DNA of 64,000 bases from the sequence record MG748548. The stretch is one strand, 5' to 3'. A program made the translations under genes and the position numbers. Under the pieces are notes generated by a model. It searched no databases. It was not told where the DNA came from and worked only from the letters and a program-made list of their open reading frames with translations. Shown here one piece after another: positions 48,825 through 62,427 of this stretch. The stretch comes from Escherichia phage EP335. How positions within the stretch are numbered: the first letter of the stretch is position 1; every line of letters begins with the position of its first letter.

Positions 48825-49373
48825 TTACATTTTCCAATATAAAGATGGGGGGTCATTTGGGTCAAAGTTTGCAATATGACAAAGATATTTATAAACCTTA
48901 ACCGTTAAGTTTACGTCCTGTTCACAATAAGTAAACATGTCCTCTGTAAAGGCATCCCATGCTTCTTCCTGTTCACCGTAATCGCCCTTAAGCTCTTCTA
49001 AGAACTCACCCCATTGCTTTAAGCCATGACCTCTTGGGCCATGTCTAGGGTCGCCTTTCGGATACTCAGGACTGTCACCAATACGGTCAGGTTTAAGATA
49101 CCGACTCAGACATAAAGTGTCTAGGACGTTGAATTTGTATTTGATTAATTTCGGATATACTTTCTTCAGAGCTGGAAGGTCGAAGTCAATAATATTATGA
49201 CCTACAACAATATCAGCCTCTGTAAGTTTCTTGATACCCTCTTCAATCTGGTGAGGACGAAATCCCCACCGTTCACCAGTTGCTATATCGAAGATAAAGA
49301 TACACCATACGTTTGTGATATTGTCGTACAGTGCATCACTCTCAATATCAAATGCGTAGACTTTCTTTACCAC
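48825..49373 (-). CDS. stand-alone 3'-5' exonuclease (DnaQ-like DEDDy)
   Basis: Exo I FDIESD, Exo [11 protein letters not shown], Exo III YCEQDV; sits directly after primase-helicase as in T7 gene 4 / gene 5 order. Confidence 0.75.
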
Positions 49374-51157
49374 GGGCTTTTCTCTCCATCTTGAGCAAGA
49401 AGTGATGCTGCATCCTCTCCATTTGTCAGCGAGAATGGATTTTCTTCATCAATTTCATGATCTTCACGCTCAAGCAACCGTCCCGTCTCTCCTACATACT
49501 TCGTATAGCACACCCCTGTTTGTCCATAGTTACGCTCTTTGAGGAGTCGTATAATGGATAGGTTCTTAGCCAGACCATCTGCTTGTTTGTCACGTTCAAA
49601 ACCGATGATACATTGACACCAACGCATAAGAGAACGAGAACCAGTAAACTGTACCTCTCGAACCTGACCACCTTCTTCATGAGGTGCACCACCTGCCGGA
49701 GCATTAAGATGAGATAGCACGAATGCTGTGAAGTTTAATTCTTGACACATACCAGCAAGCTCTGAAGCAATCTTACTGATTTCAGTGTTAATCTCTGAAG
49801 GTGTTAAATGGGATACCAGAGCGGTAATGTTATCAAGGATGATAAACTTACACTGGTTTTCAACAACCCAGAAACGGATACACTGTTTAATGTCGGCCCA
49901 TTCATTCTGACCAAAGTTATCATAGAGGAAGAATTTATCTGCATATCGAAGAGCTTCGTTACGCAATGTATCTTCATCATACTCAACATCAGGTCTGTGG
50001 AAAGGAATAGATGCTGACTTACCTGCAATATTCTTAACGGACATTCCGACCTTCTCTTCCAAGAAGAATCCACCACCATTAAAACCATGCTCAAGACAAA
50101 GCCAAGCAACCAGTTCATGTGCAATCAATGTTTTACCAGAGCCTACACCTCCACCAATTGCTACCATCTCTCCCCAACGAATACCGTAGGTCATCTCATT
50201 AAGAGTCTTCCACGGATATGGGATACCCCACTCTGCTTTCTTCAGAGCATCATCTAAGCAATCAAAAACAGTTACAGCACCAGCTGGGGATTCCCGCTTC
50301 GCTGAATATTTAAGAATGTTAAACAACTCCTGACCACGACCAGAGAGGAGCATATCATTCGCATCTTTAAGCTCTTTCTCAACACCGTTGTACTGGAAAG
50401 AACCTTTAGGAATACGAGCAAACTTCACATGGGGGAACAGAGCACGCCCTTTGGTAAGAGCAATCTCACCAGCATCATCGTTGTCCATACAGAGAACAAC
50501 CTCTTCAAAACCATTCAAGAACTCACGGTTGCGAGATAAAACGGAAGAGATTGACCCTGCACCGAAGGGTAAAGAGACGCACGCTGGTTTAATATTTGTT
50601 GCATTTGTAAAAGCTGTAAGAACATGGAAACCAGACATGCAAGACAAAGGGTCTTCAAAGATGAAGAGCTTCTTATTGTACACATCTCCACGTTTAGCCT
50701 GTGCCATACCAAACAAATCAGCTTCTTTCACACTACCGATGTAATAAAACTTTTTACTATCAAGTAGTTTAACCTCATAACCAACAATGTTTCCATCACG
50801 TTCACGAGGGAAGAAGTAACTGTCTGGTGTCTGACCATCAGTTTGACTGAGACCGATACGACATTCAAAACGCTCTGATACAGCTTTAGGGATTAATCGA
50901 CGAGTGAGTTCTCCTTGAGGTAACTCCAAGCAATCATCCAAGACTTCTCGAAGTTCTTCAGGGGACAGCTCTTTCTTTTCGTTTGGTGTAGGTGTCGTGC
51001 CTTTCTCAAAGACTTCGTAATTACCACACCGGTTACAACTACCCCACTCTTCACCGGATTCCTCATTACGGAAGAGAATCATGTGATTGTGGGTTTTATC
51101 ACGACCATGAGAGATGCACTCTTTACAGCCTGTATCTCCCAAAATGATCTTTGACAT
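49367..51157 (-). CDS. DNA primase-helicase (T7 gp4-like)
   Basis: N-terminal zinc ribbon CKEC...[22 protein letters not shown], Walker [10 protein letters not shown], Walker B FIILDN. Confidence 0.85.
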
Positions 51158-51194: not shown

Positions 51195-51404
51195 TTACTT
51201 ATAAAAACTTCGAATCATGTCCCAGATTTCTTCCTGCTGGACCCTAAAGAAAGCTAAACGTGTCGATGTACGTTCAATAAATTCTTCACTATGCTTTTCT
51301 CTATCTAGCATACTGACAAGCTTTTCATATTTATTGATCTTCCATCGCATTTTTAAATAGTCTGATTCCAGTGTCCTTAACCTCTGACACTCAATCAAAC
51401 CCAT
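51195..51404 (-). CDS. hypothetical protein
   Basis: ORF track 69 aa. Confidence 0.4.
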   Translation of the reverse strand: MGLIECQRLRTLESDYLKMRWKINKYEKLVSMLDREKHSEEFIERTSTRLAFFRVQQEEIWDMIRSFYK

Positions 51405-51823
51405 TAGTTATCCTCTGACAGATAAAGAGACCAGTCACCAGATTCAACCAGCTCATCCTGCTCTTCATCGATGTGATAAATCCAAGCAGTGATAGTTTCA
51501 CCACTATCCATTACAACTTCGATAGGAGTACGCTTATAGAAAGTGTGTGGGTTGTCATTACCGCGATGCCCTTCCAGCATATCATAAGCACCCTCAACAC
51601 CATCCATATCCGTCTTAAATACTTCAACACGAACAGGTTTACCGTTGCTGTTGTGTTCCAGAGAAACACTTGGGAAGTATGAACCACCGTAGCGGTACAA
51701 GTTGTAGTTTTCTTTAGTGAAGCCTTCACCAATTGATTCAGCACCTGCACGAGCATTCACTCGGAAGTTGGCCTGACCAGTGCGAAGAGAACCGTAAGTT
51801 GCTACATAAATTACTTCTGACAT
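51404..51823 (-). CDS. gamma-glutamyl cyclotransferase-like (AIG2/GGCT family) protein
   Basis: N-terminal YVATYGSLRTG motif typical of AIG2/GGCT fold. Confidence 0.5.
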   Translation of the reverse strand: MSEVIYVATYGSLRTGQANFRVNARAGAESIGEGFTKENYNLYRYGGSYFPSVSLEHNSNGKPVRVEVFKTDMDGVEGAYDMLEGHRGNDNPHTFYKRTPIEVVMDSGETITAWIYHIDEEQDELVESGDWSLYLSEDN

Positions 51824-51824
51824 T

Positions 51825-52034
51825 TTAAATACCTTTCCAATCGTTCATGATTTTTTCAATATAAGCACACTGTTGATCAGTGGCACCTGTTACAAATATT
51901 TCACACCCTAACTGTTCACAGAAAGGATTGAGTATTAAGATTTGAGATTTACCATATGAGTGATGCTCTCTGTAAATAACACAACCAGCATCCCAAACTG
52001 AATCTAATGCCTTACTTAACCTTTTGTGTTTCAT
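51825..52034 (-). CDS. hypothetical protein
   Basis: ORF track 69 aa. Confidence 0.35.
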   Translation of the reverse strand: MKHKRLSKALDSVWDAGCVIYREHHSYGKSQILILNPFCEQLGCEIFVTGATDQQCAYIEKIMNDWKGI

Positions 52035-52090
52035 ACAGTCTCCAGTTAATCCGAACTAGCCTCCTCTTTCGAAGAAGCTAGAGCAGATTG

Positions 52091-52273
52091 CTATGCTGTG
52101 AAGTTTTTGATTACACCGCAAATAACATCTGTTTCAAACGTACCCACCAGAACATCGTCTCGGTAGAAATTAATCGCTTTACCATCTCGGTTAAAGTGAT
52201 CTGCTTCAATGAGCATAGATTGTACCTGACCATCTGGGGTGGAGGTTCGAAAGATGACGTTATACTGACTCAT
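52091..52273 (-). CDS. hypothetical protein
   Basis: ORF track 60 aa. Confidence 0.3.
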   Translation of the reverse strand: MSQYNVIFRTSTPDGQVQSMLIEADHFNRDGKAINFYRDDVLVGTFETDVICGVIKNFTA

Positions 52274-52512
52274 AAAGAAGTTACTCCCTTATCTTCTTGA
52301 GCGATAGAGATGATACGACTCACACACTGCATTGAGTACTCATCACCACGCTTTAGGAACGTTACGATAGCAGAGAATTGATTACCAATCATCCGCTCAT
52401 TTGTAATACCGAACTCTTTGCAGAGTTCTTTCAGTTTGCTACGAGAACCAATAATCAGAGGTTCTTTTTCTTCAGTCATTCCACGACTAATCAAATCTTC
52501 AATAGACAACAT
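52270..52512 (-). CDS. hypothetical protein
   Basis: ORF track 80 aa. Confidence 0.35.
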   Translation of the reverse strand: MLSIEDLISRGMTEEKEPLIIGSRSKLKELCKEFGITNERMIGNQFSAIVTFLKRGDEYSMQCVSRIISIAQEDKGVTSL

Positions 52513-52535
52513 AATTCCATTCCTTGGGGGTTTAA

Positions 52536-53753
52536 TTAAAAGTTTACTGCTTCACCATCAACGGTAGTTACTGATGCAAGACGACGAACACGGCCAATCT
52601 GTTCACGACTGATTGGAGTATTCCAACCAGAGCGATAGAAGTTGCGACCACAGAAGAACACAACAACATTAGAAGCAATCCGTCCGTAGTTACGATCAGG
52701 GTGATTGATGTTAGCAAGATAATAACCACGGGTCAAGTTTGCATTTTCGTTGATATGCCGAGCATTTGGTGCAGTTGTTTCAGCTTGCATCATTTCAGGA
52801 ACATCTTCTACGATAGGCTCAACCGTAGGTTCATCACCAGCTAAAGCAAAGTTCTCATCAGCAGCCTCTTCTGCATCATCTTCCAGCTCCACAGTTTCCT
52901 GAATAACTGGCAGAGGGTATGCTACACGATACTCAGGGTTTTGACCACGGAGAGATTCAACATACTGCAAGAAGTTGTGCTGGTAAGTTTCCAGAGTTGT
53001 ACCAGTCAGGCCCGGAGCGGTATTAACTTCTAACACCCACGCTTCCTCACCTTTACTGATAAGATCAACAGCACCAAAGTTAAGACCGAGTGCTTGTACT
53101 GCTTTGTGCGCTTGAATTAGAACCTGATCAGGTGGTGAATCATTAAAAGAGTTGGAATAAACCCAACCAGTGTGGTGATTACGAACATCTTCACGATAGT
53201 CAGGGTTATCACGATACCCATTACGACGAATCTTCTTCTGGACGTAAGTAATAACACCTTCAAAAACATGCACACGCCATTCACGACGTGGACCAGTGAT
53301 TGCTTTTGTATACAGAGGAGCCTCAGCAACACCCTCACGAGGAAGACGAACAGTGATGCCTTCACCAGAGTGACCATTAAGTACACCACGTTCGTAAACA
53401 ATACTGTTTTGGTTCCAGTTAAGTGCTTCATCTCGGTTAGTGGTATACTCAACAGTCTTGACTTCCGCAAGACGCATGGCATTGAAAGCTGCAACCTTGT
53501 TAGCCGCACGATTCAATGCTGCTACGTTGTTCAGAACCGTTGCACCTTCGAAGAAGGATTCTTGATAACGACGGTTTCCATAGTTGATAATCACGTCACC
53601 AGAACGAGCACGGAATCGGCTGGTTCCATCAGACAGAAGAGCCATTGCGTTGGCATTGATTCGGTTGTCACGGAGATGTTGATTCAAGCTGGATACCAGA
53701 GCATTAACAGAATCAGAAGGGCCATAAGGGAGAACACGGATACGAGTAGTCAT
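52536..53753 (-). CDS. ATP-grasp family ligase with ~130-aa C-terminal extension
   Basis: ATP-grasp hallmark WVLEVNTAPGLTG near residue 260; acidic linker then extra C-terminal domain. Confidence 0.55.
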   Translation of the reverse strand: MTTRIRVLPYGPSDSVNALVSSLNQHLRDNRINANAMALLSDGTSRFRARSGDVIINYGNRRYQESFFEGATVLNNVAALNRAANKVAAFNAMRLAEVKTVEYTTNRDEALNWNQNSIVYERGVLNGHSGEGITVRLPREGVAEAPLYTKAITGPRREWRVHVFEGVITYVQKKIRRNGYRDNPDYREDVRNHHTGWVYSNSFNDSPPDQVLIQAHKAVQALGLNFGAVDLISKGEEAWVLEVNTAPGLTGTTLETYQHNFLQYVESLRGQNPEYRVAYPLPVIQETVELEDDAEEAADENFALAGDEPTVEPIVEDVPEMMQAETTAPNARHINENANLTRGYYLANINHPDRNYGRIASNVVVFFCGRNFYRSGWNTPISREQIGRVRRLASVTTVDGEAVNF

Positions 53754-53755
53754 TT

Positions 53756-53989
53756 TTAGATACCTTTAAGTTTAAGAATTTCGTTGCGAGTACGTTGGAT
53801 ACGTTCTTCAAGAGTATGATAATCAAAGATGCACATCTCTTCTGCTTCATCAGAAGGTGCATCCATTAAACCCATAGCAATCGGATACACCTTTCGCTGT
53901 TCCGTTGTCATGTCCTGTAGCCGGAGTCGTTGATACTCCAGCAGGGTAATTTTCGGCTTGTTAGTTTCCTTGCTTGACATGAGGCTCAA
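53756..53989 (-). CDS. hypothetical protein
   Basis: ORF track 77 aa. Confidence 0.35.
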   Translation of the reverse strand: MSLMSSKETNKPKITLLEYQRLRLQDMTTEQRKVYPIAMGLMDAPSDEAEEMCIFDYHTLEERIQRTRNEILKLKGI

Positions 53990-54194
53990 CCTTGATACCT
54001 TTCAGTTTCACATAGTCAGCCAGCACGTTGTTAATAACTGTTGGGAAAGGAATCTCAACAGGTGCATTAACTAACCCACCAATACCCTCTTGCATCCACT
54101 TCTGGATTGCACGAAGGTTATCACATCCTGTGCTTGTCATTGGAATACGGCGAGTGGTTACAACGTTATCCAACATCATCTTACGAATTTCCAT
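53961..54194 (-). CDS. hypothetical protein
   Basis: ORF track 77 aa. Confidence 0.35.
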   Translation of the reverse strand: MEIRKMMLDNVVTTRRIPMTSTGCDNLRAIQKWMQEGIGGLVNAPVEIPFPTVINNVLADYVKLKGIKVEPHVKQGN

Positions 54195-54204
54195 AATACA
54201 CCTC

Positions 54205-56223
54205 TTAATTATGACCTTTACAGTGCACTGAATCGCACACCACTTGATTGGTATTGTTTAGTGTGCAGAGTTCTGCATCACGCCACGGAATCTTTTTAAA
54301 ACAGACTGCACAAAACCCAAGAGTAGACCAGAGGGCTTTTGTGAAGGTTGCTGATCGGTTTCCATCGAAGGACGCAACTGTTCTGGTAATTGAGACTTTT
54401 GACTCACGAAAGGTTTCCGCTGCTGGAGCGGGTTCCTCCTTTGGGGTAGTCACTGCAATAGCATAAACACCACCCCAACGCTTCTCAATGTAAGCACCGA
54501 ACACATCTTCCAGAGTGATTTCACTCTTACGTTTGGTTGAGGATTCCATGACAATCATGTTGTCCAGAATCTTTTGATCAACACGAAGAGCTACTTCAGG
54601 ACGTCGAGCACTTGTTGTATCAACATACTTGGTCCAAACATAACCCTCTTTCAGAGTGACTTGAGTTGCTTGCTTCTTTGCTTTATTAGCACAGATTTTA
54701 CAAACATCGTCACCACGAAGTTTACTGAACTCTTCATCAAATTCAAAGTCAGACTTCACTTCGCCGCACACTGAACAAACGCCGATAGGAATCTCATCCT
54801 CTTCAACGTCTTCCACTTGCTTCTGGATAGAATCAAAACAAGCTTTATGCCAATATGCTTGGTATGCGAAGATCGCACTTGGTGCTTCTTTCCAGTCAAT
54901 GTGCTTATCACATCCACCACAATCACCGTGGGAATGGGCTTCCCAGAACTTACGAGTGATAGTCACCCCATTCTTGCTGACAAAACTATCCTCTGCATCA
55001 AAAGGGATATCATCATCGAAATCAGCTGTAGTGCTTTCCGGCTCCTTTTTCGACAAGTCAAAGAAGTGACCAGAGATCAACACCAAACGAATCATGCTAT
55101 TAACTTCAGAGATACAGCCAACCGTACCACGGTAAACCATATGCTTGTTCTTAAGAGCAGCTTCGTAATCAGTTTGCAGGATGTTATGAACATCACCCTC
55201 AATATACTCTTGAGCTTTGTCATCATAAATATAACCAACCATCTTACCGCGATCGGTATCTTTATAACAAACAAACTCGTGAGGAATAATATCAACCTGC
55301 ATATCACGACGGACATCAACACCTTTGTCAGAGGCGATCTTGTTTTGTTTCAAGATTGCTTCACGACGACGTACATCACCTGCGGTTACGCCGGGCTTTC
55401 TTTGCTCGTCGCTGTTCCCGTTTACGTAACTTTTTGTCACGCTTGAGTGATTGTTGCTGTAGCTGTTCGAGTAATAACTTCCCCAACGCGTTGCTACCGT
55501 AAAAACCGGGAGTTCATGTACGACCTCCTCTACCAAAGTCATCTTGTTGTCAGAAACATCAAAGATGTACTCTGTACCGACTTTACACTCAAAGTGCTCA
55601 TCAATTCGGTTCTTGTGGCTCTTAGAACGCTGAAGAATCCACATTAGCATCGCTTCTTCTGAAGCACCAAACCATGAAGTTCCCAGACGGGCCAGATGGA
55701 AAGGACGTTCATCGTTACGAATGATGTGAAGACGGTTATCACTTGCATCATGCCAGATTAGAGTGAATGCACCATCCAACTTCTGAATAGTCTCTGCTGC
55801 ACCAATCTTGTTAATAGAGTGGCAGATGTTCTCACTATCAACCTCAAAAGCCTTACTGTCAGGCAGAAGGTCTTGATCAACTAAGGTTCCGTTATGAACC
55901 AGAGTAATATTTCCGTGAGAGAATGGGTGAGCGTTACGTGAGTTAATAGCGCCTTTCGTAGCATGTCGGCTGTGACCAACAATCCATGAAGGAGGCACTG
56001 TGTAATTAGTAAGGCCAGTTGTCAGCTCGGTGTACTCTTTCTGTAACATGAAAGCATAGGAAGGCAGTGCTTCTTTGTAAGAGAACACAGATCTTTCGCT
56101 TTTACGCTGACCGAAAATACCAGTTGAGTGTTGACCACGAAATACACCAGCATAAAGAAGCTGGTTGTAAATATCTAAGTCATAACTTGAGAGGCTTCCA
56201 CCTGCTAATACGATACCACAAAT
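54205..56223 (-). CDS. class-II (Ntn) glutamine amidotransferase domain protein with Cys-rich C-terminal domain; probable non-canonical ATT start
   Basis: in-frame upstream sequence K-I-CGIVLAGG...HSRHATKG...NAHPF...VHNG; Cys codon 56218-56220 preceded by ATT with aggtgga 7 nt upstream; track start is GTG 56088. Confidence 0.6.
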   Translation of the reverse strand: MCGIVLAGGSLSSYDLDIYNQLLYAGVFRGQHSTGIFGQRKSERSVFSYKEALPSYAFMLQKEYTELTTGLTNYTVPPSWIVGHSRHATKGAINSRNAHPFSHGNITLVHNGTLVDQDLLPDSKAFEVDSENICHSINKIGAAETIQKLDGAFTLIWHDASDNRLHIIRNDERPFHLARLGTSWFGASEEAMLMWILQRSKSHKNRIDEHFECKVGTEYIFDVSDNKMTLVEEVVHELPVFTVATRWGSYYSNSYSNNHSSVTKSYVNGNSDEQRKPGVTAGDVRRREAILKQNKIASDKGVDVRRDMQVDIIPHEFVCYKDTDRGKMVGYIYDDKAQEYIEGDVHNILQTDYEAALKNKHMVYRGTVGCISEVNSMIRLVLISGHFFDLSKKEPESTTADFDDDIPFDAEDSFVSKNGVTITRKFWEAHSHGDCGGCDKHIDWKEAPSAIFAYQAYWHKACFDSIQKQVEDVEEDEIPIGVCSVCGEVKSDFEFDEEFSKLRGDDVCKICANKAKKQATQVTLKEGYVWTKYVDTTSARRPEVALRVDQKILDNMIVMESSTKRKSEITLEDVFGAYIEKRWGGVYAIAVTTPKEEPAPAAETFRESKVSITRTVASFDGNRSATFTKALWSTLGFCAVCFKKIPWRDAELCTLNNTNQVVCDSVHCKGHN

Positions 56224-56297
56224 TTTCTAATCCACCTGAAGGGTAAACCCTTTCATCTAATTAACCTTTAGTTGTGCCCCTTTCGAGGCACCCATTG

Positions 56298-57398
56298 TTA
56301 CAGCAGTCGTTCTAACTGAATTTCCAAGTGATCTGGAATATATTCAGTGACGTTGTTATCGGAGACGCCAGATTCACGCATCATGTTGAGCATGCTACGA
56401 ATCTGTCCTTCTGTTGCTTCACGAGTTTCACTAATCTCTGTTTCATACAGAGCCATGATCTCGTTATGAACATCTTGAGCATTACCACGGACATATCCGA
56501 GGAAGCCATAGAAGTCAGACATATCACGAAGGGATACAACTACCGACCCACTATTATCAAGAGTTTGTAAACGAATACGCCCAACCTGACGGACAGAACG
56601 ATTACGACAGAACAGGATATCACGAGCCAGACGATAACCACTATCAAGATCTTCGTGTCTTGGGGTGTAGTCTAGAGGTAGGTGAGGGAGCATAGGGTCA
56701 AAACGAACCCTGTTAAGCATCTCAACAAACTCTTCATTGTCCATCTCTGCATTTTCAACTGCTAATTTCTTAAGAACCAAGAAGCGGTTTACCAGATTTA
56801 ACAGCTGACCTTTCTTCCACTTAGGCTCTGAGATACGGAACTCAACAGAACCGAACTGAGCCAGAGGAAGTAGGTTAAGTGATGTGTACTTATCCCAACG
56901 ATCAACAATGTGTCGGAAGAAGTTCTCACCTTCGTAGTTAAATGCTTCAGAAGCATTCATTACTTGAGCCTGCACTACCGCAAAAGCAGGACAGAAATTA
57001 CTACGGTAACGGTGATAACCAGAGCACTTAAACATCAATGCTTCATAGAAAGTCCACCCAAGGATAACTTTCTTAACGATATTGCTATCAGCATCTCGCA
57101 TATCCATATGAACGTGAGTGGAACAGCGCCAAGTCCCTTCTGCTTCGGACTCCATCACTGCCTCACTCAGATTGTTGATAGCGTCAAACAGTTCTACACC
57201 ATTGTAAGGGCGAGAACAGACCATTTCACATCCGTTGCGAAGCGAGCCATCCTCTGTACATTCCCACATATCTGCTTCGATATGATCGTCACCTTCAAGC
57301 TCCAGCTCAATACCAATACCGCATTGGAATGCGATACTCGGATGTGCTTCACTCAGACGATTACTACGGTATCCAAAAGCTTGCGCTACAGTTGTCAT
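56298..57398 (-). CDS. amidoligase-like (glutamine-synthetase-fold COOH-NH2 ligase) candidate
   Basis: N-terminal G.E.E strand motif FQCGIGIELELEG and His/Glu-rich core; assignment tentative. Confidence 0.4.
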   Translation of the reverse strand: MTTVAQAFGYRSNRLSEAHPSIAFQCGIGIELELEGDDHIEADMWECTEDGSLRNGCEMVCSRPYNGVELFDAINNLSEAVMESEAEGTWRCSTHVHMDMRDADSNIVKKVILGWTFYEALMFKCSGYHRYRSNFCPAFAVVQAQVMNASEAFNYEGENFFRHIVDRWDKYTSLNLLPLAQFGSVEFRISEPKWKKGQLLNLVNRFLVLKKLAVENAEMDNEEFVEMLNRVRFDPMLPHLPLDYTPRHEDLDSGYRLARDILFCRNRSVRQVGRIRLQTLDNSGSVVVSLRDMSDFYGFLGYVRGNAQDVHNEIMALYETEISETREATEGQIRSMLNMMRESGVSDNNVTEYIPDHLEIQLERLL

Positions 57399-58009
57399 AA
57401 CGACTCCACTAACTCCACAGTGTATTGGTTAAAATCACTTTGAATATGCTTGAACACATCAAGCAGTTGTACGGTCTGACGACCACGGCTGTCATGTCCA
57501 GCACCGAGAAGCACGCGACCAACGTGTGCTCCTTTATAATAAACAAGACCATCGGAAGGGTTGATGAAGATAAAGCGAGTCAACAAACCTTCAAAAGATG
57601 GATTAAACAGGTTATAAACCATCTCACCGGAGATGTTACGACCAAGAGAAGTTACGCCACGGAGTTTGTTACCCATCAACCCCTTAGCTCGCTGACGAAC
57701 TGGATTGATATGGGTCCAACTTACCATGTTACGACCATGTTGAAGATAACCAACATCAGGGGATTCCAGAATCAGGTTAGGGTTGAACACTCCAATCTGA
57801 ACTGTTGTACGGTTAAACCCTGAGTCTGTTTTAACCCAACGCTCTGCTTCGAACATCAAAGCCATCTCTGCTTCGTGAGAGAAGTCATCACGAGAGAACT
57901 CGCCTTGTTGGAATACGTTCATAACAAACAATGGGATGTTTAAGTTCCCACGTCTTTCAGCAATCCATGTCCCACAATAGTAATGAGAGAAGTCAGTTAC
58001 TAAGCTCAC
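57395..58009 (-). CDS. hypothetical protein in amidoligase cluster
   Basis: ORF track 204 aa, GTG start; 4-nt overlap with upstream gene. Confidence 0.45.
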   Translation of the reverse strand: MSLVTDFSHYYCGTWIAERRGNLNIPLFVMNVFQQGEFSRDDFSHEAEMALMFEAERWVKTDSGFNRTTVQIGVFNPNLILESPDVGYLQHGRNMVSWTHINPVRQRAKGLMGNKLRGVTSLGRNISGEMVYNLFNPSFEGLLTRFIFINPSDGLVYYKGAHVGRVLLGAGHDSRGRQTVQLLDVFKHIQSDFNQYTVELVESL

Positions 58010-58018
58010 GATAACCCC

Positions 58019-58906
58019 TTACGCTACCTGTAAACGTTTCAAGAACACATCTGCTTCACGAACATCGTTGGTGTTGATGATCTGGTGCAGCTTTTCAATC
58101 GGAAGGCGAGAGTGGAGGCCCATCAAGAACTCCATGTCGCTGTTTTGTACAACCTTGTCAACTTGATCATACACAAATTGACGATCTTCTTTCTTGCCAA
58201 TCCAGAAGTTTGACAGAGAGCGATACTCAATGCCATAAGGTTTGTAACGGATTGCGGATGCTTTACCGTATAGCTCTTTACGACGAGCATCACCGTCCAT
58301 CAGAACAGCAGGCAATGACAGGAAGTAATCACACAGAACGCCCAGCATCATCTGAACCTTCTTATTCACATCCAGAGAGCCAGTGACACCGATATGCACA
58401 TGACCGCCTGCTGTACGCAAGCCCTTGTTCTCTGAAGTTGGGGAAGCATTCTTTTGACCAGTGAATGCGTTGAAGTCTGGAGTACAACCAAACACGAAAG
58501 CGGACGGATGGAATGATTCCAATTCTTCTTTAGAGAAGATATGAGAACTTACACCCAGAGCCGCTTCCATGTCCTGTTTCTTCAGAACTTCGTTGGTAAG
58601 ATCAATACCACGCTGAACGTTGTCATTAAACGCTTCAAAACCTTGTTGTGGGTTGATATCAAATTCAGCAAGAACGTTGTCTTCTTGGAGACGAACATCC
58701 TTAGCCAGATCGATTTTATTTTCTTTAGAACAGCCCAGCTTTCCAGCAACAGAGGTGATGATGCCAGAAGAAGTACGAACAAACATTTCAGGGTCAGTGC
58801 CGATTAAAAAGATGCGCTTAGTCATTGTAGTATTCCACCAATTCTTTAAAGAGGGATGTGATTGTTTCTTTGTTGCTCTCTGTACTAGAGTCACAACGAC
58901 TTTCAA
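58019..58906 (-). CDS. hypothetical protein in amidoligase cluster (possible second ligase-like enzyme)
   Basis: ORF track 295 aa; internal start MTKRIFLIGTDPEMF plausible. Confidence 0.45.
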   Translation of the reverse strand: MKVVVTLVQRATKKQSHPSLKNWWNTTMTKRIFLIGTDPEMFVRTSSGIITSVAGKLGCSKENKIDLAKDVRLQEDNVLAEFDINPQQGFEAFNDNVQRGIDLTNEVLKKQDMEAALGVSSHIFSKEELESFHPSAFVFGCTPDFNAFTGQKNASPTSENKGLRTAGGHVHIGVTGSLDVNKKVQMMLGVLCDYFLSLPAVLMDGDARRKELYGKASAIRYKPYGIEYRSLSNFWIGKKEDRQFVYDQVDKVVQNSDMEFLMGLHSRLPIEKLHQIINTNDVREADVFLKRLQVA

Positions 58907-59747
58907 TACGTTCTAAGAAACCATTTACACTGATGTTAGAAATCTTTTCATCAAGAGATGAACGTTTCCAACCAGTGCTCATAGACCAAACTCTCAAAAA
59001 GGTACTCATTGAAGAGTACATCTCTGCGTTTTGGTTTCGACGACGAGCAATACGACGAAGGGCTGCACGGTCATGGTTTCGGATATACCCTGATGTGTTA
59101 TCACCTTCTCCAACTTTGTTTTGCAACCAAACATCGGTTGAAAACTCATCTGTATTGCAAATGATCGGAAGAAATGCAAATGCTGGTAAGTCGTGCGGTA
59201 AGTAGATAGATGTTGATTCATCAGTGGAATCATTAACTCTATCAAAGTTAAGCTCCCCAAAGAAATCCTTACTTACCCCAGCAAGAGCTAGAGCTAATCC
59301 AACACGACGACGGAATAGCCATTCTTCTCTATCATCAACTCCCTCTGAAAGAAAATCCATAGATTCATACTCGCAATCGAGATAACTACGGAAAGTCATT
59401 AGTCCTGTAAAAACTTTATCTGCTGCGTGTTCACGAAGATCAACCTCTACACTATTAGCAGAAGTGATTGTGAACATATCTTTGTACATAGAACAGGAGT
59501 TTAGTACATCAGCAGTATCCAACAAATGAGACTCAATCTCATCCATGTTGCAGTGAGGCCAGTAGTTAATCTTACCCATGTGTGCTGTGAAGTTATCTAA
59601 GCTGGTTCGATTACTCAGGCCATTAATATCACGAGTGCTGAAGTTGTGCATAGAGTTGTGGATACCGAAACAGACTCGGCTCGTAAAACTCTGCTCACCC
59701 ACCATATCACTAACTTCTACAGGAGCTAATGTTGTGGAAATTGCCAT
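58818..59747 (-). CDS. hypothetical protein in amidoligase cluster
   Basis: ORF track 309 aa. Confidence 0.45.
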   Translation of the reverse strand: MAISTTLAPVEVSDMVGEQSFTSRVCFGIHNSMHNFSTRDINGLSNRTSLDNFTAHMGKINYWPHCNMDEIESHLLDTADVLNSCSMYKDMFTITSANSVEVDLREHAADKVFTGLMTFRSYLDCEYESMDFLSEGVDDREEWLFRRRVGLALALAGVSKDFFGELNFDRVNDSTDESTSIYLPHDLPAFAFLPIICNTDEFSTDVWLQNKVGEGDNTSGYIRNHDRAALRRIARRRNQNAEMYSSMSTFLRVWSMSTGWKRSSLDEKISNISVNGFLERIESRCDSSTESNKETITSLFKELVEYYND

Positions 59748-59759
59748 TGTCTTTAACCT

Positions 59760-60953
59760 TTAATTTCCTAAGAAAAGTTTCGTGAGAATTGAATCCCACT
59801 CCGTACTAGGCAGTACATCAAAACTGCTATTATTTGACAGATTCGACTGTTGAAAGTGGCGAATCATTGTGTAAGTATTAACACGGTCATTGCCAAATCG
59901 AGTATACAACAACTCATTTCGAGTCTTGTCTGATAGGGAAATAGCTTTGGCAAAAGCTACAATCAGCATAGGCTCTTTGAGGGCACGATCTTGAAGGGCT
60001 TCCGGTTGAAGAATAGGTAAGAACATTGAGTTGTTTACATACAGCTCATGCTCTTCGTGTCCGGGAACGTCATACCAAACACTCGAATAGTCTTCATCAC
60101 GGAAATGTCCTTCACCAGCCATATATGACGGTTGACGCCACGCAGTCTGGCGAGGTTCTGCCATATTAGCTCCGATGCCCACTGTGTACAGTGTTACAGG
60201 GAACAGGCAGTTATCGTATTCATTACCAGTAAAGGCAACTCGTACTTCGCCAAACAGATTCTCTTTTGCGTTAATCAATCGAGAATAGGCAAGAGCTTGT
60301 AACGGAGACCAATCGTCCATAAAGAGCTTATCAAGGAAAGTCCACACATTTGCTTGCTCATCTTCTTGATAAAACAGACGATTAACCATAAGATAGAACA
60401 GGCAACGATCAGCAGGCACTGGTTCAGATACATCTTCTGTTACCACACCCATAAAACCTTTTTCATGCCAAACAAGACATGAAGGACGATCTTTATCCAT
60501 GAAAGCTTCAAGTGCTTCCATAACTGACTTGACAGTTACATCAGGTCGTTCACGATATTCAGCCCAAAGCTCAACTGCGTTCTTAGGCTTTTCATCCCCT
60601 ACATCAGCGTGATAGAAAGCATATTGGAAGGAGATGATGTTGTTGCTCCCATCCTTTCCACGCATAGGGATATGGGTTCCAGAGTTCCAGATAATACGAA
60701 TATCTTCCATTGACATTAAACTGCTTAGGAGTTCATCGCTGCCAGAGCTTTGCATCAAGCTATAGCTGCTATCCCAAACATGGACATACTGCGTCCAGCC
60801 TTCATTGGCTTCGTAGGTAATGGGGTCGTAATAATCACTATCTTCGTCACAATCATCACCACCGTGGTAGTTGCTGTGCTGAAGAAAGCCATAGCAAGGA
60901 GGCCAGACTGTTACTACATTGTCCTGCTTATCCTGCAATGTTACTGGAAACAT
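59760..60953 (-). CDS. hypothetical protein in amidoligase cluster
   Basis: ORF track 397 aa. Confidence 0.45.
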   Translation of the reverse strand: MFPVTLQDKQDNVVTVWPPCYGFLQHSNYHGGDDCDEDSDYYDPITYEANEGWTQYVHVWDSSYSLMQSSGSDELLSSLMSMEDIRIIWNSGTHIPMRGKDGSNNIISFQYAFYHADVGDEKPKNAVELWAEYRERPDVTVKSVMEALEAFMDKDRPSCLVWHEKGFMGVVTEDVSEPVPADRCLFYLMVNRLFYQEDEQANVWTFLDKLFMDDWSPLQALAYSRLINAKENLFGEVRVAFTGNEYDNCLFPVTLYTVGIGANMAEPRQTAWRQPSYMAGEGHFRDEDYSSVWYDVPGHEEHELYVNNSMFLPILQPEALQDRALKEPMLIVAFAKAISLSDKTRNELLYTRFGNDRVNTYTMIRHFQQSNLSNNSSFDVLPSTEWDSILTKLFLGN

Positions 60954-60964
60954 TTTGAAACCTC

Positions 60965-61327
60965 TTATTGTTGTTTGATCAACTCAACGGACTTACGGAT
61001 GTAAAGAATATCACGGAAGTTACGGTAGTTGTTCATGAATTGATGCTTCTGGAACTCCGCTTCAAGCAGAGATTCTTTGGCACTTTCATAACTCTTACGG
61101 GCAAGATACACAACCCGCTCTGGTAATACGTTTGCACGACGGATGATATACTTGTGAGCTTTCATATTGCTCTGCTCACGAGATATCTTACTTTTCGCTA
61201 CCGTAATGCCATTTGCAAGCCAAACAAGCTCTTGCTCAAGCTCTTCGTTGGACATTCCACCGAGGTTTGATGCAACCTTGTTCAGAGTTTCAATGTTAAC
61301 GTTGCCCTTGATGGGACGTGTATTCAT
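60965..61327 (-). CDS. hypothetical protein
   Basis: ORF track 120 aa; aggag RBS. Confidence 0.4.
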   Translation of the reverse strand: MNTRPIKGNVNIETLNKVASNLGGMSNEELEQELVWLANGITVAKSKISREQSNMKAHKYIIRRANVLPERVVYLARKSYESAKESLLEAEFQKHQFMNNYRNFRDILYIRKSVELIKQQ

Positions 61328-61504: not shown

Positions 61505-61529
61505 AAAAAAGGACTCTCCGAAAAGAGCC
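61505..61529 (-). terminator. rho-independent terminator candidate (UUCG loop)
   Basis: minus-strand ggctct-ttcg-gagagtc followed by tttttt. Confidence 0.4.
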
Positions 61530-62194: not shown

Positions 62195-62228
62195 AGGGGA
62201 ATAGCTCCTAAAAATCATGACTGCGCAG

Positions 62229-62240
62229 AGGGAATTCCCT
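62229..62240. promoter_or_regulatory. perfect 12-bp palindrome AGGGAATTCCCT (operator-like)
   Basis: between minus-strand terminator hairpin and RBS of gene starting 62194. Confidence 0.3.
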
Positions 62241-62244
62241 ACGC

Positions 62245-62268
62245 AAAAACGACGCTAAAAGAAGCGTC
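62245..62268 (-). terminator. rho-independent terminator candidate
   Basis: minus-strand gacgct-tctttt-agcgtc followed by gttttt. Confidence 0.45.
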
Positions 62269-62427
62269 ACAGTAGTTGAAAAGAGGTACAGAAACAGGGG
62301 TTATTTAGCTACCTTTTTCTGACCGTTTACGAACCAGATAATTGAACCGTCAGGCTGTCGTTGACCGAAGCCTTTCATGGTTAGCATGTCTTCCGAAAAC
62401 TCTTTAAAAGTAATCACTTACTTACCC

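What the first reader, a model, noticed from the sequence alone, without database searches (positions are those of the whole stretch)
51404..61327. Ten-kb minus-strand cluster of amide-bond-forming enzymes with five unassigned partner proteins
Consecutive same-strand genes encode a GGCT/AIG2-like protein (YGSL motif), an ATP-grasp ligase (WVLEVNTAPG) with an extra C-terminal domain, a class-II glutamine amidotransferase (CGIV...NAHPF...VHNG) fused to a Cys-rich domain, and a GS-fold amidoligase candidate (GIELELEG), followed by 204-, 295-, 309-, 397- and 120-aa proteins with no motif I can assign. Together these are the ingredients for ATP-dependent, glutamine-fed peptide or amide ligation, which has no obvious role in replication or virion assembly. 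I recall comparable gene neighbourhoods being predicted in phiEco32-like phages as peptide-tagging or metabolite-synthesis systems, but the substrate and role are uncharacterised as far as I know. Candidate roles are modification of a virion or host protein, synthesis of a small molecule, or counter-defence.
Basis: partly seen in the sequence, partly recalled or inferred. Interest (0 to 1): 0.8.

Follow-up and report, generated by a model that had tools for sequence, protein, structure and literature searches.

The report
Known phage three-ligase amide-bond module
This gene cluster is real, but it is the already-described "phiEco32/LUZ24-type" phage module of three ATP-dependent amide-bond ligases, a glutamine-splitting enzyme and a gamma-glutamyl-removing enzyme; it is very widespread in phages and nobody has yet shown what it does.

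Summary
Window 51404-61327 (minus strand) carries one tightly packed gene string in a Nieuwekanaalvirus coliphage, 97.6% identical to Bas89/KBNP1711.

The "unassigned" 295-aa protein is a third ligase, COOH-NH2 ligase type 2 (PF14395), with a true length of 268 aa.

The same module sits next to primase/helicase or other replication genes in LUZ24, Privateer, Aeromonas, Salinivibrio, crAss-like and cyanophage genomes. Its marker ligase is in 315 phage records and about 4,500 protein clusters. The literature since 2009 calls it a putative peptide-synthesis or peptidoglycan-modification cassette. It has not been tested in any paper I could search.

What I did not find in the papers I could read:
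- The 397- and 309-aa proteins are fast-evolving paralogs with an invariant N-terminal Cys in a C-[FYW]-G motif, present as a pair in most lineages sampled.
- The 204-aa protein is a confident double small-beta-barrel.
- The small ORF after the amidotransferase is DUF7195.
- The amidotransferase starts at ATT, behind a conserved hairpin and mini-ORF.

Best reading: a cytoplasmic, glutamate/glutamine-centred pathway that adds and trims amide bonds. The acceptor is unknown. DNA modification is unlikely.

The parts
60965..61327 (-). 120-aa basic, probably coiled-coil protein (PHROG 11370). It sits upstream of the first X-family gene.
   Evidence: ORF and PHROG hit. It is 85.8% identical to phiEco32 gp89. 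A weak homolog lies directly upstream of X1 in metagenome contig L010 (E = 3e-5). Separate ~120-130-aa proteins in Privateer, BUCT695 and L009 lie just upstream of the X genes, directly or one small gene away. Whether it belongs to the module is uncertain.
59760..60953 (-). X1: 397-aa acidic protein, a paralog of X2, with an N-terminal PPCYG motif
   Evidence: No Pfam, NCBIfam or PDB hit. Alignment A1 has invariant C, G, R, W and R columns shared with X2. It is only 46% identical to phiEco32 gp88, while the enzymes are 66-80% identical.
58818..59747 (-). X2: 309-aa acidic protein, a paralog of X1, with an N-terminal VCFG motif (Cys26)
58019..58825 (-). COOH-NH2 ligase type 2 (GCS2-like carboxylate-amine ligase), 268 aa
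   Evidence: PF14395 scores 30.9 bits against a cut-off of 25, and PHROG 3815 gives E = 2e-113 from residue 28. It is 40-52% identical to LUZ24 gp16 and Privateer gp092. tblastn finds it in 315 phage records, and a representative search finds 4,482 clusters at 50% identity.
57395..58009 (-). X3: 204-aa protein made of two small beta-barrels. Its stop overlaps the Amidoligase_2 start (ATGA).
56298..57398 (-). Amidoligase_2 (glutamine-synthetase-like amidoligase), 366 aa
   Evidence: PF12224 scores 25.7 bits against a cut-off of 22, and PHROG 7469 gives E = 2e-146. Homologs are present in LUZ24, Privateer, BUCT695 and CW02. The family motifs appear in the crAss-like and cyanophage proteins.
56227..56256 (-). 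Conserved leader: a 9-codon mini-ORF (MKGFTLQVD*) containing the hairpin AAGGG-TTTA-CCCTT (56252-56239) and the Shine-Dalgarno AGGTGG (56237-56232). Its stop lies 3 nt before the ATT start.
   Evidence: Sequence. About 55 nt are nearly invariant in phiEco32, Aeromonas phage BUCT695 and contig L009, while the flanks diverge. One stem pair changes A-T to G-C in L009. No Rfam family matches.
54205..56223 (-). Class-II (Ntn) glutamine amidotransferase domain (residues 1-~225), a variable middle region, and repeated Cys-rich (CxxC) motifs; 672 aa, ATT start
   Evidence: GATase_6 scores 53.2 bits. Cys1, R-G, GH.R..G, A.P, HNGT, DS and RP are conserved in the eight phage homologs; Cys1 is missing only where BUCT695's annotated start truncates the protein. 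ATG-TGT occupies the same position in LUZ24, Privateer and L010. The CxxC repeats are conserved in four phages. It scores far below the GlmS, PurF, AsnB and EgtC cut-offs.
53961..54194 (-). DUF7195 small protein (77 aa), conserved immediately downstream of the amidotransferase
   Evidence: PF23825 scores 63.9 bits. The same family sits in the same position in LUZ24 gp20, Privateer 088, BUCT695 gp043, L009, L010 and L011.
53756..53989 (-). 77-aa ORF of unknown function (homolog of phiEco32 gp81)
   Evidence: 57% identity. No family hit. It was not found outside the Kuravirus-like phages.
52536..53753 (-). RimK-like ATP-grasp ligase (residues ~1-290) with an extra C-terminal domain (338-405)
   Evidence: PHROG 2599 gives E = 9e-177, and PHROG 20552 covers residues 338-405. 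The best named relatives are MptN and RimK-family alpha-L-glutamate ligases and Ddl, all below cut-off. Homologs are present in all eight phages.
52270..52512 (-). 80-aa homolog of phiEco32 gp79 (an RNA-polymerase-binding transcription regulator). It is interleaved in the cluster but is not part of the chemistry.
   Evidence: It is 70.7% identical to phi32_79. The gp79 function is as described in PMC8948821.
52091..52273 (-). 60-aa ORF of unknown function (homolog of phiEco32 gp78)
   Evidence: 36% identity. No family hit.
51825..52034 (-). 69-aa Cys-rich ORF that is absent from Bas89
   Evidence: The 51836-52044 segment has no counterpart in Bas89. No family hit.
51404..51823 (-). GGCT/AIG2-like gamma-glutamyl cyclotransferase, 139 aa
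   Evidence: PF06094 scores 63.2 bits against a cut-off of 22.8, and PHROG 2520 gives E = 2e-43. Homologs are present in six of the eight phages.
51195..51404 (-). 69-aa ORF (homolog of phiEco32 gp76), the last gene before primase/helicase (49367-51157)

Best explanation
This is the phiEco32/LUZ24-type phage amidoligase module. I read it as a soluble cytoplasmic set of enzymes that makes and then trims glutamate-type (gamma-glutamyl or isopeptide-like) amide bonds. In relatives it is made early in infection, or as a middle-class gene in phiEco32.

Proposed steps, all inferred from the known chemistry of each fold:
1. Three ATP-dependent carboxylate-amine ligases of three different folds each activate a carboxylate as an acyl-phosphate and join it to an amine. 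They are the RimK-like ATP-grasp, the GS-like Amidoligase_2 and the GCS2-like COOH-NH2 ligase.
2. The Ntn-type amidotransferase has an intact glutamine pocket. Either it feeds ammonia from glutamine to a ligase (most plausibly the GS-like one), or it cleaves a gamma-glutamyl amide.
3. The GGCT protein removes a gamma-glutamyl group as 5-oxoproline.

The logic resembles three known 'add a gamma-glutamyl handle, then take it off' pairs: EgtA/EgtC, PuuA/PuuD and BtrJ/BtrG.

The non-catalytic partners probably hold, carry or select the acceptor. These are the X1/X2 pair with its invariant Cys, the X3 double barrel, DUF7195, and the Zn-ribbon-like repeats on the amidotransferase.

My estimates:
- Chemistry class: about 0.75.
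- Final product a short peptide-like or amine conjugate made from ubiquitous small substrates (amino acids, polyamine or muropeptide-type peptide): about 0.45.
- A protein tag: about 0.3.
- Nucleic acid: less than 0.1.
For: Shown here:
- The family assignments.
- The glutamine-pocket residues (Cys1, Arg, Asn-Gly, Asp) are conserved in eight distant phage homologs.
- The enzyme families recur together in eight phage lineages spanning several families: the COOH-NH2 ligase, amidotransferase and ATP-grasp in all eight by phmmer, Amidoligase_2 and GGCT in six, with Amidoligase_2 motifs also visible in the other two.
- The crAss-like, Salinivibrio and cyanophage versions add a Peptidase_C26-type (gamma-glutamyl hydrolase family) class-I amidotransferase-like protein.
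- The genes are tightly packed or overlapping, with no internal gp36-type promoter.
- No protein has a signal peptide or transmembrane segment by hydropathy.

From papers:
- The proteins are made during infection. SU10 proteomics lists them among early gene products. The HP1 cassette is transcribed immediately.

Supporting an adaptor or specificity role for the partners:
- X1 and X2 evolve about twice as fast as the enzymes.
- The accessory domains differ between lineages.
Against: No substrate, product or phenotype is known. None of the proteins has a solved relative detectable by sequence. The ATP-grasp is below Pfam and NCBIfam cut-offs for every named family. The fold and role of X1/X2 remain unknown. 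The gamma-glutamyl 'handle' analogy rests on my knowledge of EgtA/EgtC, PuuA/PuuD and BtrJ/BtrG, not on a test here. The window's module lacks the Peptidase_C26 member.
Confidence: 0.5

Rival explanations
1. Peptidoglycan-precursor modification. This is the reading in the literature. The ligases build or alter stem-peptide-like linkages (gamma-glutamyl, D-Ala-D-Ala-like) on cytoplasmic precursors. The amidotransferase and GGCT degrade or amidate them. The result changes the cell wall to exclude superinfecting phages or to prepare for lysis.
For: The idea is attributed to Iyer 2009 and Hardies 2013. The ATP-grasp has weak similarity to D-Ala-D-Ala ligase. From my own knowledge, the hosts of module-bearing phages share the same kind of peptidoglycan stem peptide. 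A SleB-type cell-wall hydrolase lies a few genes upstream in Privateer and in contig L009.
Against: It has not been tested in any paper I could find. There is no Mur-ligase domain, no signal peptide and no membrane protein in the module. Ddl scores are far below cut-off. The cell-wall hydrolase neighbour is absent from the window.
Confidence: 0.15
2. Peptide tagging of a protein. The ligases add glutamate or a short peptide to a side chain or terminus of a host or phage protein, in the manner of RimK or Pup. X1/X2 would be the acceptor or carrier, through the conserved Cys. The amidotransferase and GGCT would act as editing or removal enzymes.
For: The named relatives of the ATP-grasp include RimK-family ligases, though the best-scoring one, MptN, acts on a cofactor. 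The module carries non-catalytic binding modules: the X3 double barrel and the CxxC repeats. X1 and X2 are fast-evolving and acidic. Cys is invariant in a variable N-terminal arm.
Against: No small tag protein with a conserved C-terminal Gly-Gly, Gln or Glu is present. The preprint on the Pa223 cryo-EM structure, a module-bearing Bruynoghevirus, never uses the words modification, isopeptide or extra density. This is weak evidence. From my knowledge, characterised members of the GGCT, GCS2 and GS-like families act on small molecules.
Confidence: 0.25
3. DNA or nucleotide hypermodification. The module decorates a base with an amino-acid-derived group, which would explain the restriction resistance of Gordonclarkvirinae.
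For: The module sits directly beside replication genes in most of the lineages examined. BASEL reports strong restriction-modification resistance with no known modification pathway. EcoRV (32) and EcoRI (11) sites are present in the window, so site loss does not explain resistance to those enzymes.
Against: No base-transfer, hydroxymethylase, kinase or glycosylase-type enzyme is present in the cluster. DNA of the LUZ24-like phage U17, which carries the module, was cut by 11 of 16 restriction enzymes. Native nanopore reads of the Vicosavirus Rembedalsseter, a close relative of the module-bearing UFV-P2, showed only a nick-associated motif. Strong avoidance of many palindromes in the window implies that its DNA is exposed to restriction enzymes.
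Confidence: 0.06
4. An unrelated collection of ordinary metabolic genes, as the database names suggest (GlmS, RimK), with no joint function.
For: GenBank and PHROG product names read 'L-glutamine-D-fructose-6-phosphate aminotransferase' and 'ribosomal protein S6 glutaminyl transferase'.
Against: GlmS scores 40.5 bits against a cut-off of 381, and the match covers only the amidotransferase domain, with no SIS domains. RimK-family scores 26.8 against 143. The enzyme families co-occur in eight lineages with conserved order.
Confidence: 0.02

Closest known systems
phiEco32/LUZ24-type phage amidoligase cassette (Iyer et al. 2009 Mol Biosyst; Hardies et al. 2013 J Virol; the context given for Pfam PF14395 and PF12224)
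   Same: The same five enzyme families in the same order, next to primase/helicase. phiEco32 gp77-gp89 are the direct orthologs at 36-86% identity.
   Different: Nothing essential differs; this is an instance of it. I could not read the two source papers. I therefore cannot say whether they already noted the X1/X2 paralogy, the X3 fold or DUF7195.
EgtA/EgtC of ergothioneine biosynthesis (a GCS-type gamma-glutamyl ligase plus a class-II amidotransferase-like amidohydrolase). From my knowledge.
   Same: It pairs a GCS2-like ligase with an Ntn amidotransferase-fold protein that can remove a gamma-glutamyl group. EgtC is among the weak NCBIfam hits (17 bits).
   Different: There are no EgtB, EgtD or EgtE homologs, and scores are far below cut-off. 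The phage protein carries large extra C-terminal regions.
PuuA/PuuD (a GS-like gamma-glutamyl-putrescine synthetase plus a class-I amidotransferase-like hydrolase) and BtrJ/BtrG (an ATP-grasp plus a GGCT-fold enzyme, using gamma-glutamyl as a protecting group in butirosin synthesis). From my knowledge.
   Same: The fold pairings match: GS-like with Peptidase_C26 in the crAss-like, CW02 and cyanophage versions, and ATP-grasp with GGCT in the window.
   Different: No sequence-level membership was shown. No acyl carrier protein or polyamine-pathway genes are present. The window lacks the class-I member.
RimK / LysX-LysW / MptN family of alpha-L-glutamate ligases
   Same: These are the best named relatives of the ATP-grasp.
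   Different: Scores are far below the family cut-offs. There is no LysW-like carrier with a conserved acidic C-terminus.
MurT/GatD lipid II amidation complex. From my knowledge.
   Same: It also couples a glutaminase to an ATP-dependent ligase to amidate a glutamate carboxylate.
   Different: MurT is a Mur-ligase-fold protein and GatD is a class-I amidotransferase. Neither fold is present here.

Membership tests
phiEco32-type phage amidoligase module | COOH-NH2 ligase type 2 (PF14395) | tested here: met
   30.9 bits against a cut-off of 25. PHROG 3815, E = 2e-113.
phiEco32-type phage amidoligase module | GS-like Amidoligase_2 (PF12224) | tested here: met
   25.7 bits against a cut-off of 22. 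PHROG 7469, E = 2e-146.
phiEco32-type phage amidoligase module | Class-II amidotransferase with an N-terminal Cys nucleophile | tested here: met
   GATase_6 scores 53.2 bits. Cys follows the ATT start. The pocket residues are conserved.
phiEco32-type phage amidoligase module | RimK-like ATP-grasp ligase | tested here: met
   PHROG 2599, E = 9e-177. It is 32-43% identical to the LUZ24 and Privateer ATP-grasp proteins. Pfam scores are below cut-off.
phiEco32-type phage amidoligase module | GGCT/AIG2 protein | tested here: met
   PF06094 scores 63.2 bits against a cut-off of 22.8.
phiEco32-type phage amidoligase module | Conserved co-occurrence and order in unrelated phages | tested here: met
   Eight phage loci and four contigs.
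GlmS (the database product name) | Full-length match including the two SIS domains, above the curated cut-off | tested here: not met
   NF001484 scores 40.5 bits against 381, and only residues 2-194 match. Pfam finds no SIS domain.
RimK, ribosomal protein S6 glutamate ligase (the database product name) | Score above the family cut-off | tested here: not met
   TIGR00768 scores 26.8 against 143.4, and PRK10446 scores 19.3 against 331.
Pup/ubiquitin-like or LysW-type carrier tagging systems | A small tag or carrier protein with a conserved C-terminal Gly-Gly, Gln or Glu next to the ligase | tested here: not met
   The C-termini of the small ORFs are not conserved between phages. The one conserved small protein is DUF7195.
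Phage DNA hypermodification pathways | A base- or nucleotide-acting enzyme (hydroxymethylase, kinase, transglycosylase, pyrophosphorylase-type transferase) in the cluster | tested here: not met
   No such domain was found in Pfam, NCBIfam or PHROG scans.
Phage DNA hypermodification pathways | Non-canonical bases in virion DNA | not testable with these tools
   Only indirect evidence is available. U17 DNA was cut by 11 of 16 enzymes, and native nanopore reads of Rembedalsseter were normal.
Class-I amidotransferase / Peptidase_C26 (considered for the 204-aa protein) | Profile similarity and the Cys-His-Glu motifs | tested here: not met
   hhalign probability is 0.1%. The AF2 model is a double beta-barrel, not a flavodoxin-like fold.

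The most novel reading that the evidence does not exclude
The X1/X2 pair would be a previously undescribed kind of protein carrier or catalyst. Its invariant Cys, on a variable N-terminal arm, would hold a growing acyl or peptidyl group as a thioester. The three ligases and two trimming enzymes would then build a gamma-glutamyl-containing product on it. That would be a phage-encoded peptide assembly line independent of both ribosomes and NRPS. Its product would disarm a broadly conserved host function, possibly contributing to the unexplained restriction and defence resistance of Gordonclarkvirinae.
Probability: 0.1. Interest if true: 0.85.

Novelty: already known. Interest (0 to 1): 0.42.

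Why it matters
The module is one of the most widespread multi-gene enzyme sets in tailed phages that still has no known function. Its marker ligase is in 315 phage records and about 4,500 clusters at 50% identity. It occurs in phages of Escherichia, Pseudomonas, Vibrio, Aeromonas, Rhizobium and cyanobacteria, and in crAss-like phages from human faeces.

It costs 8-10 kb of a 45-77 kb genome, and in relatives it is expressed early in infection. It therefore probably matters for infection.

The window's phage is nearly identical to BASEL phage Bas89, which grows on engineered E. coli K-12. That makes the question experimentally approachable. The finding itself adds no new kind of system.

Tried and rejected
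- **X1/X2 family identity.** Pfam on 16 members, an A1 profile against PDB sequences and NCBIfam all gave nothing.
- **X2 homologs.** Homolog searches returned only 5-6 proteins. I should have raised the E-value limit.
- **X3 as a class-I amidotransferase.** Rejected.
- **X3 as a split-off version of the N-terminal extensions on the crAss-like and cyanophage amidoligases.** No profile signal. Only a short motif resemblance.
- **X3 against the amidotransferase middle region and the ATP-grasp C-terminal domain.** No relation.
- **Single-sequence searches of the four enzymes against PDB.** Nothing useful.
- **The afdb50 fold library.** Not available.
- **Source papers.** Iyer 2009 and Hardies 2013 could not be read. 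The paper cap stopped a check of Kuravirus DNA digestibility.
- **Literature searches for an experimental study of the module.** None found.
- **The gp36-type promoter motif TAATGTATA.** Absent inside the cluster.
- **Rfam.** No match for the leader element.

Full report
**What is there.** The window comes from a Gordonclarkvirinae podophage, genus Nieuwekanaalvirus. Region 51404-61327 is 97.6% identical to Escherichia phage KarlSchell_Bas89 and 96.6% identical to KBNP1711.

On the minus strand, from 61327 down to 51195, sixteen ORFs are packed with gaps of 1-74 nt or short overlaps. No TAATGTATA (gp36-type) promoter lies inside the cluster. The next gene downstream is the primase/helicase at 49367-51157.

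- GGACT/AIG2: 63.2 bits.
- Class-II amidotransferase: GATase_6, 53.2 bits.
- Amidoligase_2: 25.7 bits.
- RimK-like ATP-grasp: PHROG 2599, E = 9e-177. Pfam scores are below cut-off.

The 295-aa "unassigned" ORF is the COOH-NH2 ligase type 2 (PF14395). Its real start is the ATG at 58825. The module therefore has three carboxylate-amine ligases of three different folds.

The amidotransferase begins at ATT (56223-56221), directly before the nucleophile Cys. LUZ24, Privateer and contig L010 have ATG-TGT at the same position.

The database product names are over-annotations. GlmS scores 40.5 bits against a cut-off of 381 and matches only the amidotransferase domain. RimK-family scores 26.8 against 143.

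**Conservation.** The same gene families recur together in all of these:
- phiEco32 gp77-89;
- Pseudomonas LUZ24 gp14-23, and UFV-P2;
- Proteus Privateer;
- Aeromonas BUCT695;
- Salinivibrio CW02;
- the crAss-like phage cr108_1;
- cyanophage Lbo-JY46;
- metagenomic contigs L009, L010 and L012;
- a UFV-P2-like element in the Pseudomonas tolaasii chromosome.

In most of them the module sits directly beside primase/helicase or other replication genes. The COOH-NH2 ligase is found in 315 phage records. It matches 4,482 protein clusters at 50% identity at E up to 1e-3, and nearly all of the 150 best-scoring ones listed are stand-alone proteins of about 260 aa.

The crAss-like, CW02 and cyanophage versions add a Peptidase_C26-type class-I amidotransferase-like protein.

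**The unassigned proteins.**

*X1 and X2 (397 and 309 aa).* These are paralogs.
- phmmer joins the two Privateer and two BUCT695 proteins into one family.
- hhalign links that family to the window's 309-aa protein at E = 8e-5.
- A ten-sequence alignment of X1 and X2 members has invariant Cys26, Gly28, Arg120, Trp207 and Arg223.
- A C-[FYW]-G motif follows a variable 15-37-residue N-terminal arm in nearly every member I looked at. That includes the LUZ24, crAss-like and cyanophage pairs.
- I found no counterpart among the CW02 module genes.
- They have no Pfam, NCBIfam or PDB relative.
- They are acidic.
- They are only 46-48% identical to their phiEco32 orthologs, against 66-80% for the enzymes.
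- The X2 structure prediction was too weak to interpret.

*X3 (204 aa).* It gave a confident model (pLDDT 91.9) of two small beta-barrels. The barrels resemble only generic SH3/Tudor/KOW/Sm folds. A structural match to CW02 gp8 in the same gene position shows that X3 reaches beyond the lineages found by sequence. Its stop codon overlaps the Amidoligase_2 start.

*The 77-aa ORF after the amidotransferase.* It is DUF7195. It is conserved in that position in LUZ24, Privateer, BUCT695 and three contigs.

*The 120-aa protein.* It is basic and highly conserved within Kuravirus-like phages. It has only position-equivalent counterparts elsewhere.

*The 80-aa ORF.* It is the homolog of phiEco32 gp79, a transcription regulator that merely sits inside the cluster.

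**Mechanism.** All five recognisable enzyme families work on glutamate or glutamine.
- From my knowledge, characterised members of the three ligase folds activate a carboxylate with ATP and join it to an amine.
- The amidotransferase keeps every residue of the glutamine pocket in eight distant homologs. It can therefore bind a glutamine or gamma-glutamyl moiety, either to release ammonia or to cleave a gamma-glutamyl amide.
- GGCT and Peptidase_C26 remove gamma-glutamyl groups.

From my knowledge, each ligase fold here has a characterised partnership with one of these removal folds: EgtA/EgtC, PuuA/PuuD and BtrJ/BtrG. I therefore read the module as a cytoplasmic add-and-trim pathway for gamma-glutamyl-type amide bonds. 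This chemistry is inferred from family membership. It is not shown.

No protein has a signal peptide or membrane segment. The proteins are made during infection in relatives.

**Which acceptor?**

| Reading | For | Against |
|---|---|---|
| Peptidoglycan-precursor modification (the published guess) | Compatible with the universality of the target | No specific support found here |
| Protein tagging | Accessory binding modules and the fast-evolving X pair | No tag protein |
| DNA modification | Position beside replication genes; unexplained restriction resistance of this subfamily; EcoRV and EcoRI sites retained in the window | No base-acting enzyme in the cluster; U17 DNA digestible; Rembedalsseter native nanopore reads unremarkable; heavy palindrome avoidance in the window |

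**Novelty.** The cluster is an instance of a module predicted in 2009 and repeatedly noted since. It lies in a genome nearly identical to published ones. Its function is still unknown. I could not read the two source papers. I therefore cannot claim the X1/X2 paralogy, the X3 fold, the DUF7195 linkage or the ATT-leader element as new. I did not find them in the papers I could search.

Noticed in passing
window 56205-56262 (minus strand): The amidotransferase uses an ATT start. It is preceded by an AGGTGG Shine-Dalgarno, a hairpin (AAGGG-TTTA-CCCTT) and an in-frame 9-codon mini-ORF whose TAG stop lies 3 nt before the ATT. About 55 nt are nearly invariant in phiEco32, Aeromonas phage BUCT695 and contig L009 while the flanks diverge. 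L009 carries a compensatory A-T to G-C change in the stem. This looks like a translational control element, possibly working by termination-reinitiation. No Rfam family matches.
   Followed up: partly
whole window (counts over 1-64000): GC-containing palindromes are strongly avoided. Twelve of the 64 hexamer palindromes are absent, including GGATCC, CTGCAG, GGTACC and GAGCTC. CCWGG occurs 2 times against 77 expected, and GATC 133 against 240. AT-rich sites are not depleted: GATATC 32, AAGCTT 32 and GTTAAC 34 against about 20 expected.
   Followed up: partly
window 52270-52512 (minus strand): [quoted passage not shown]
   Followed up: partly
window 51836-52044, ~54200 and ~58805, compared with L001 (Bas89): Bas89 carries three extra HNH endonuclease genes relative to the window. 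One is after the primase, one is between the amidotransferase and DUF7195, and one is at the 5' end of the COOH-NH2 ligase gene, annotated as a split (intron-containing) CDS. The window in turn has a 69-aa Cys-rich ORF (51825-52034) that Bas89 lacks.
   Followed up: partly
window 56274-56291 (minus strand): A GC-rich stem-loop (GUGCCUC-GAAA-GGGGCAC) lies right after the Amidoligase_2 stop. It has no U-run. It is shared with phiEco32 but not with BUCT695 or L009. Its role is unknown.
   Followed up: no
L004 10274 (BUCT695 gp042); L003 11177 (Privateer gp089): The public annotations mis-set the amidotransferase start. BUCT695 loses the ATT-Cys N-terminus. Privateer adds 13 residues upstream of the Met-Cys.
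   Followed up: yes
L010 1634-4179; L008 2754-6963: PRPP synthetase and nicotinate/nicotinamide phosphoribosyltransferase genes lie a few kb upstream of the module in a metagenomic phage contig and in cyanophage Lbo-JY46. Privateer also encodes such genes. This may be no more than a shared early-gene region.
   Followed up: no
L003 4978-5400; L009 679-1104: A SleB-type cell-wall hydrolase (PF07486) is encoded a few genes upstream of the module in Privateer and in contig L009. That is an unusual place for a lysis enzyme. It has no counterpart upstream in the window.
   Followed up: no
window 61512-61529 and 62221-62270 (minus strand): Terminator-like hairpins with T-runs lie upstream of the cluster, in the gaps before the 51-aa ORF and before 62218. 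They may mark a transcript boundary between the early small-ORF region and the module.
   Followed up: no
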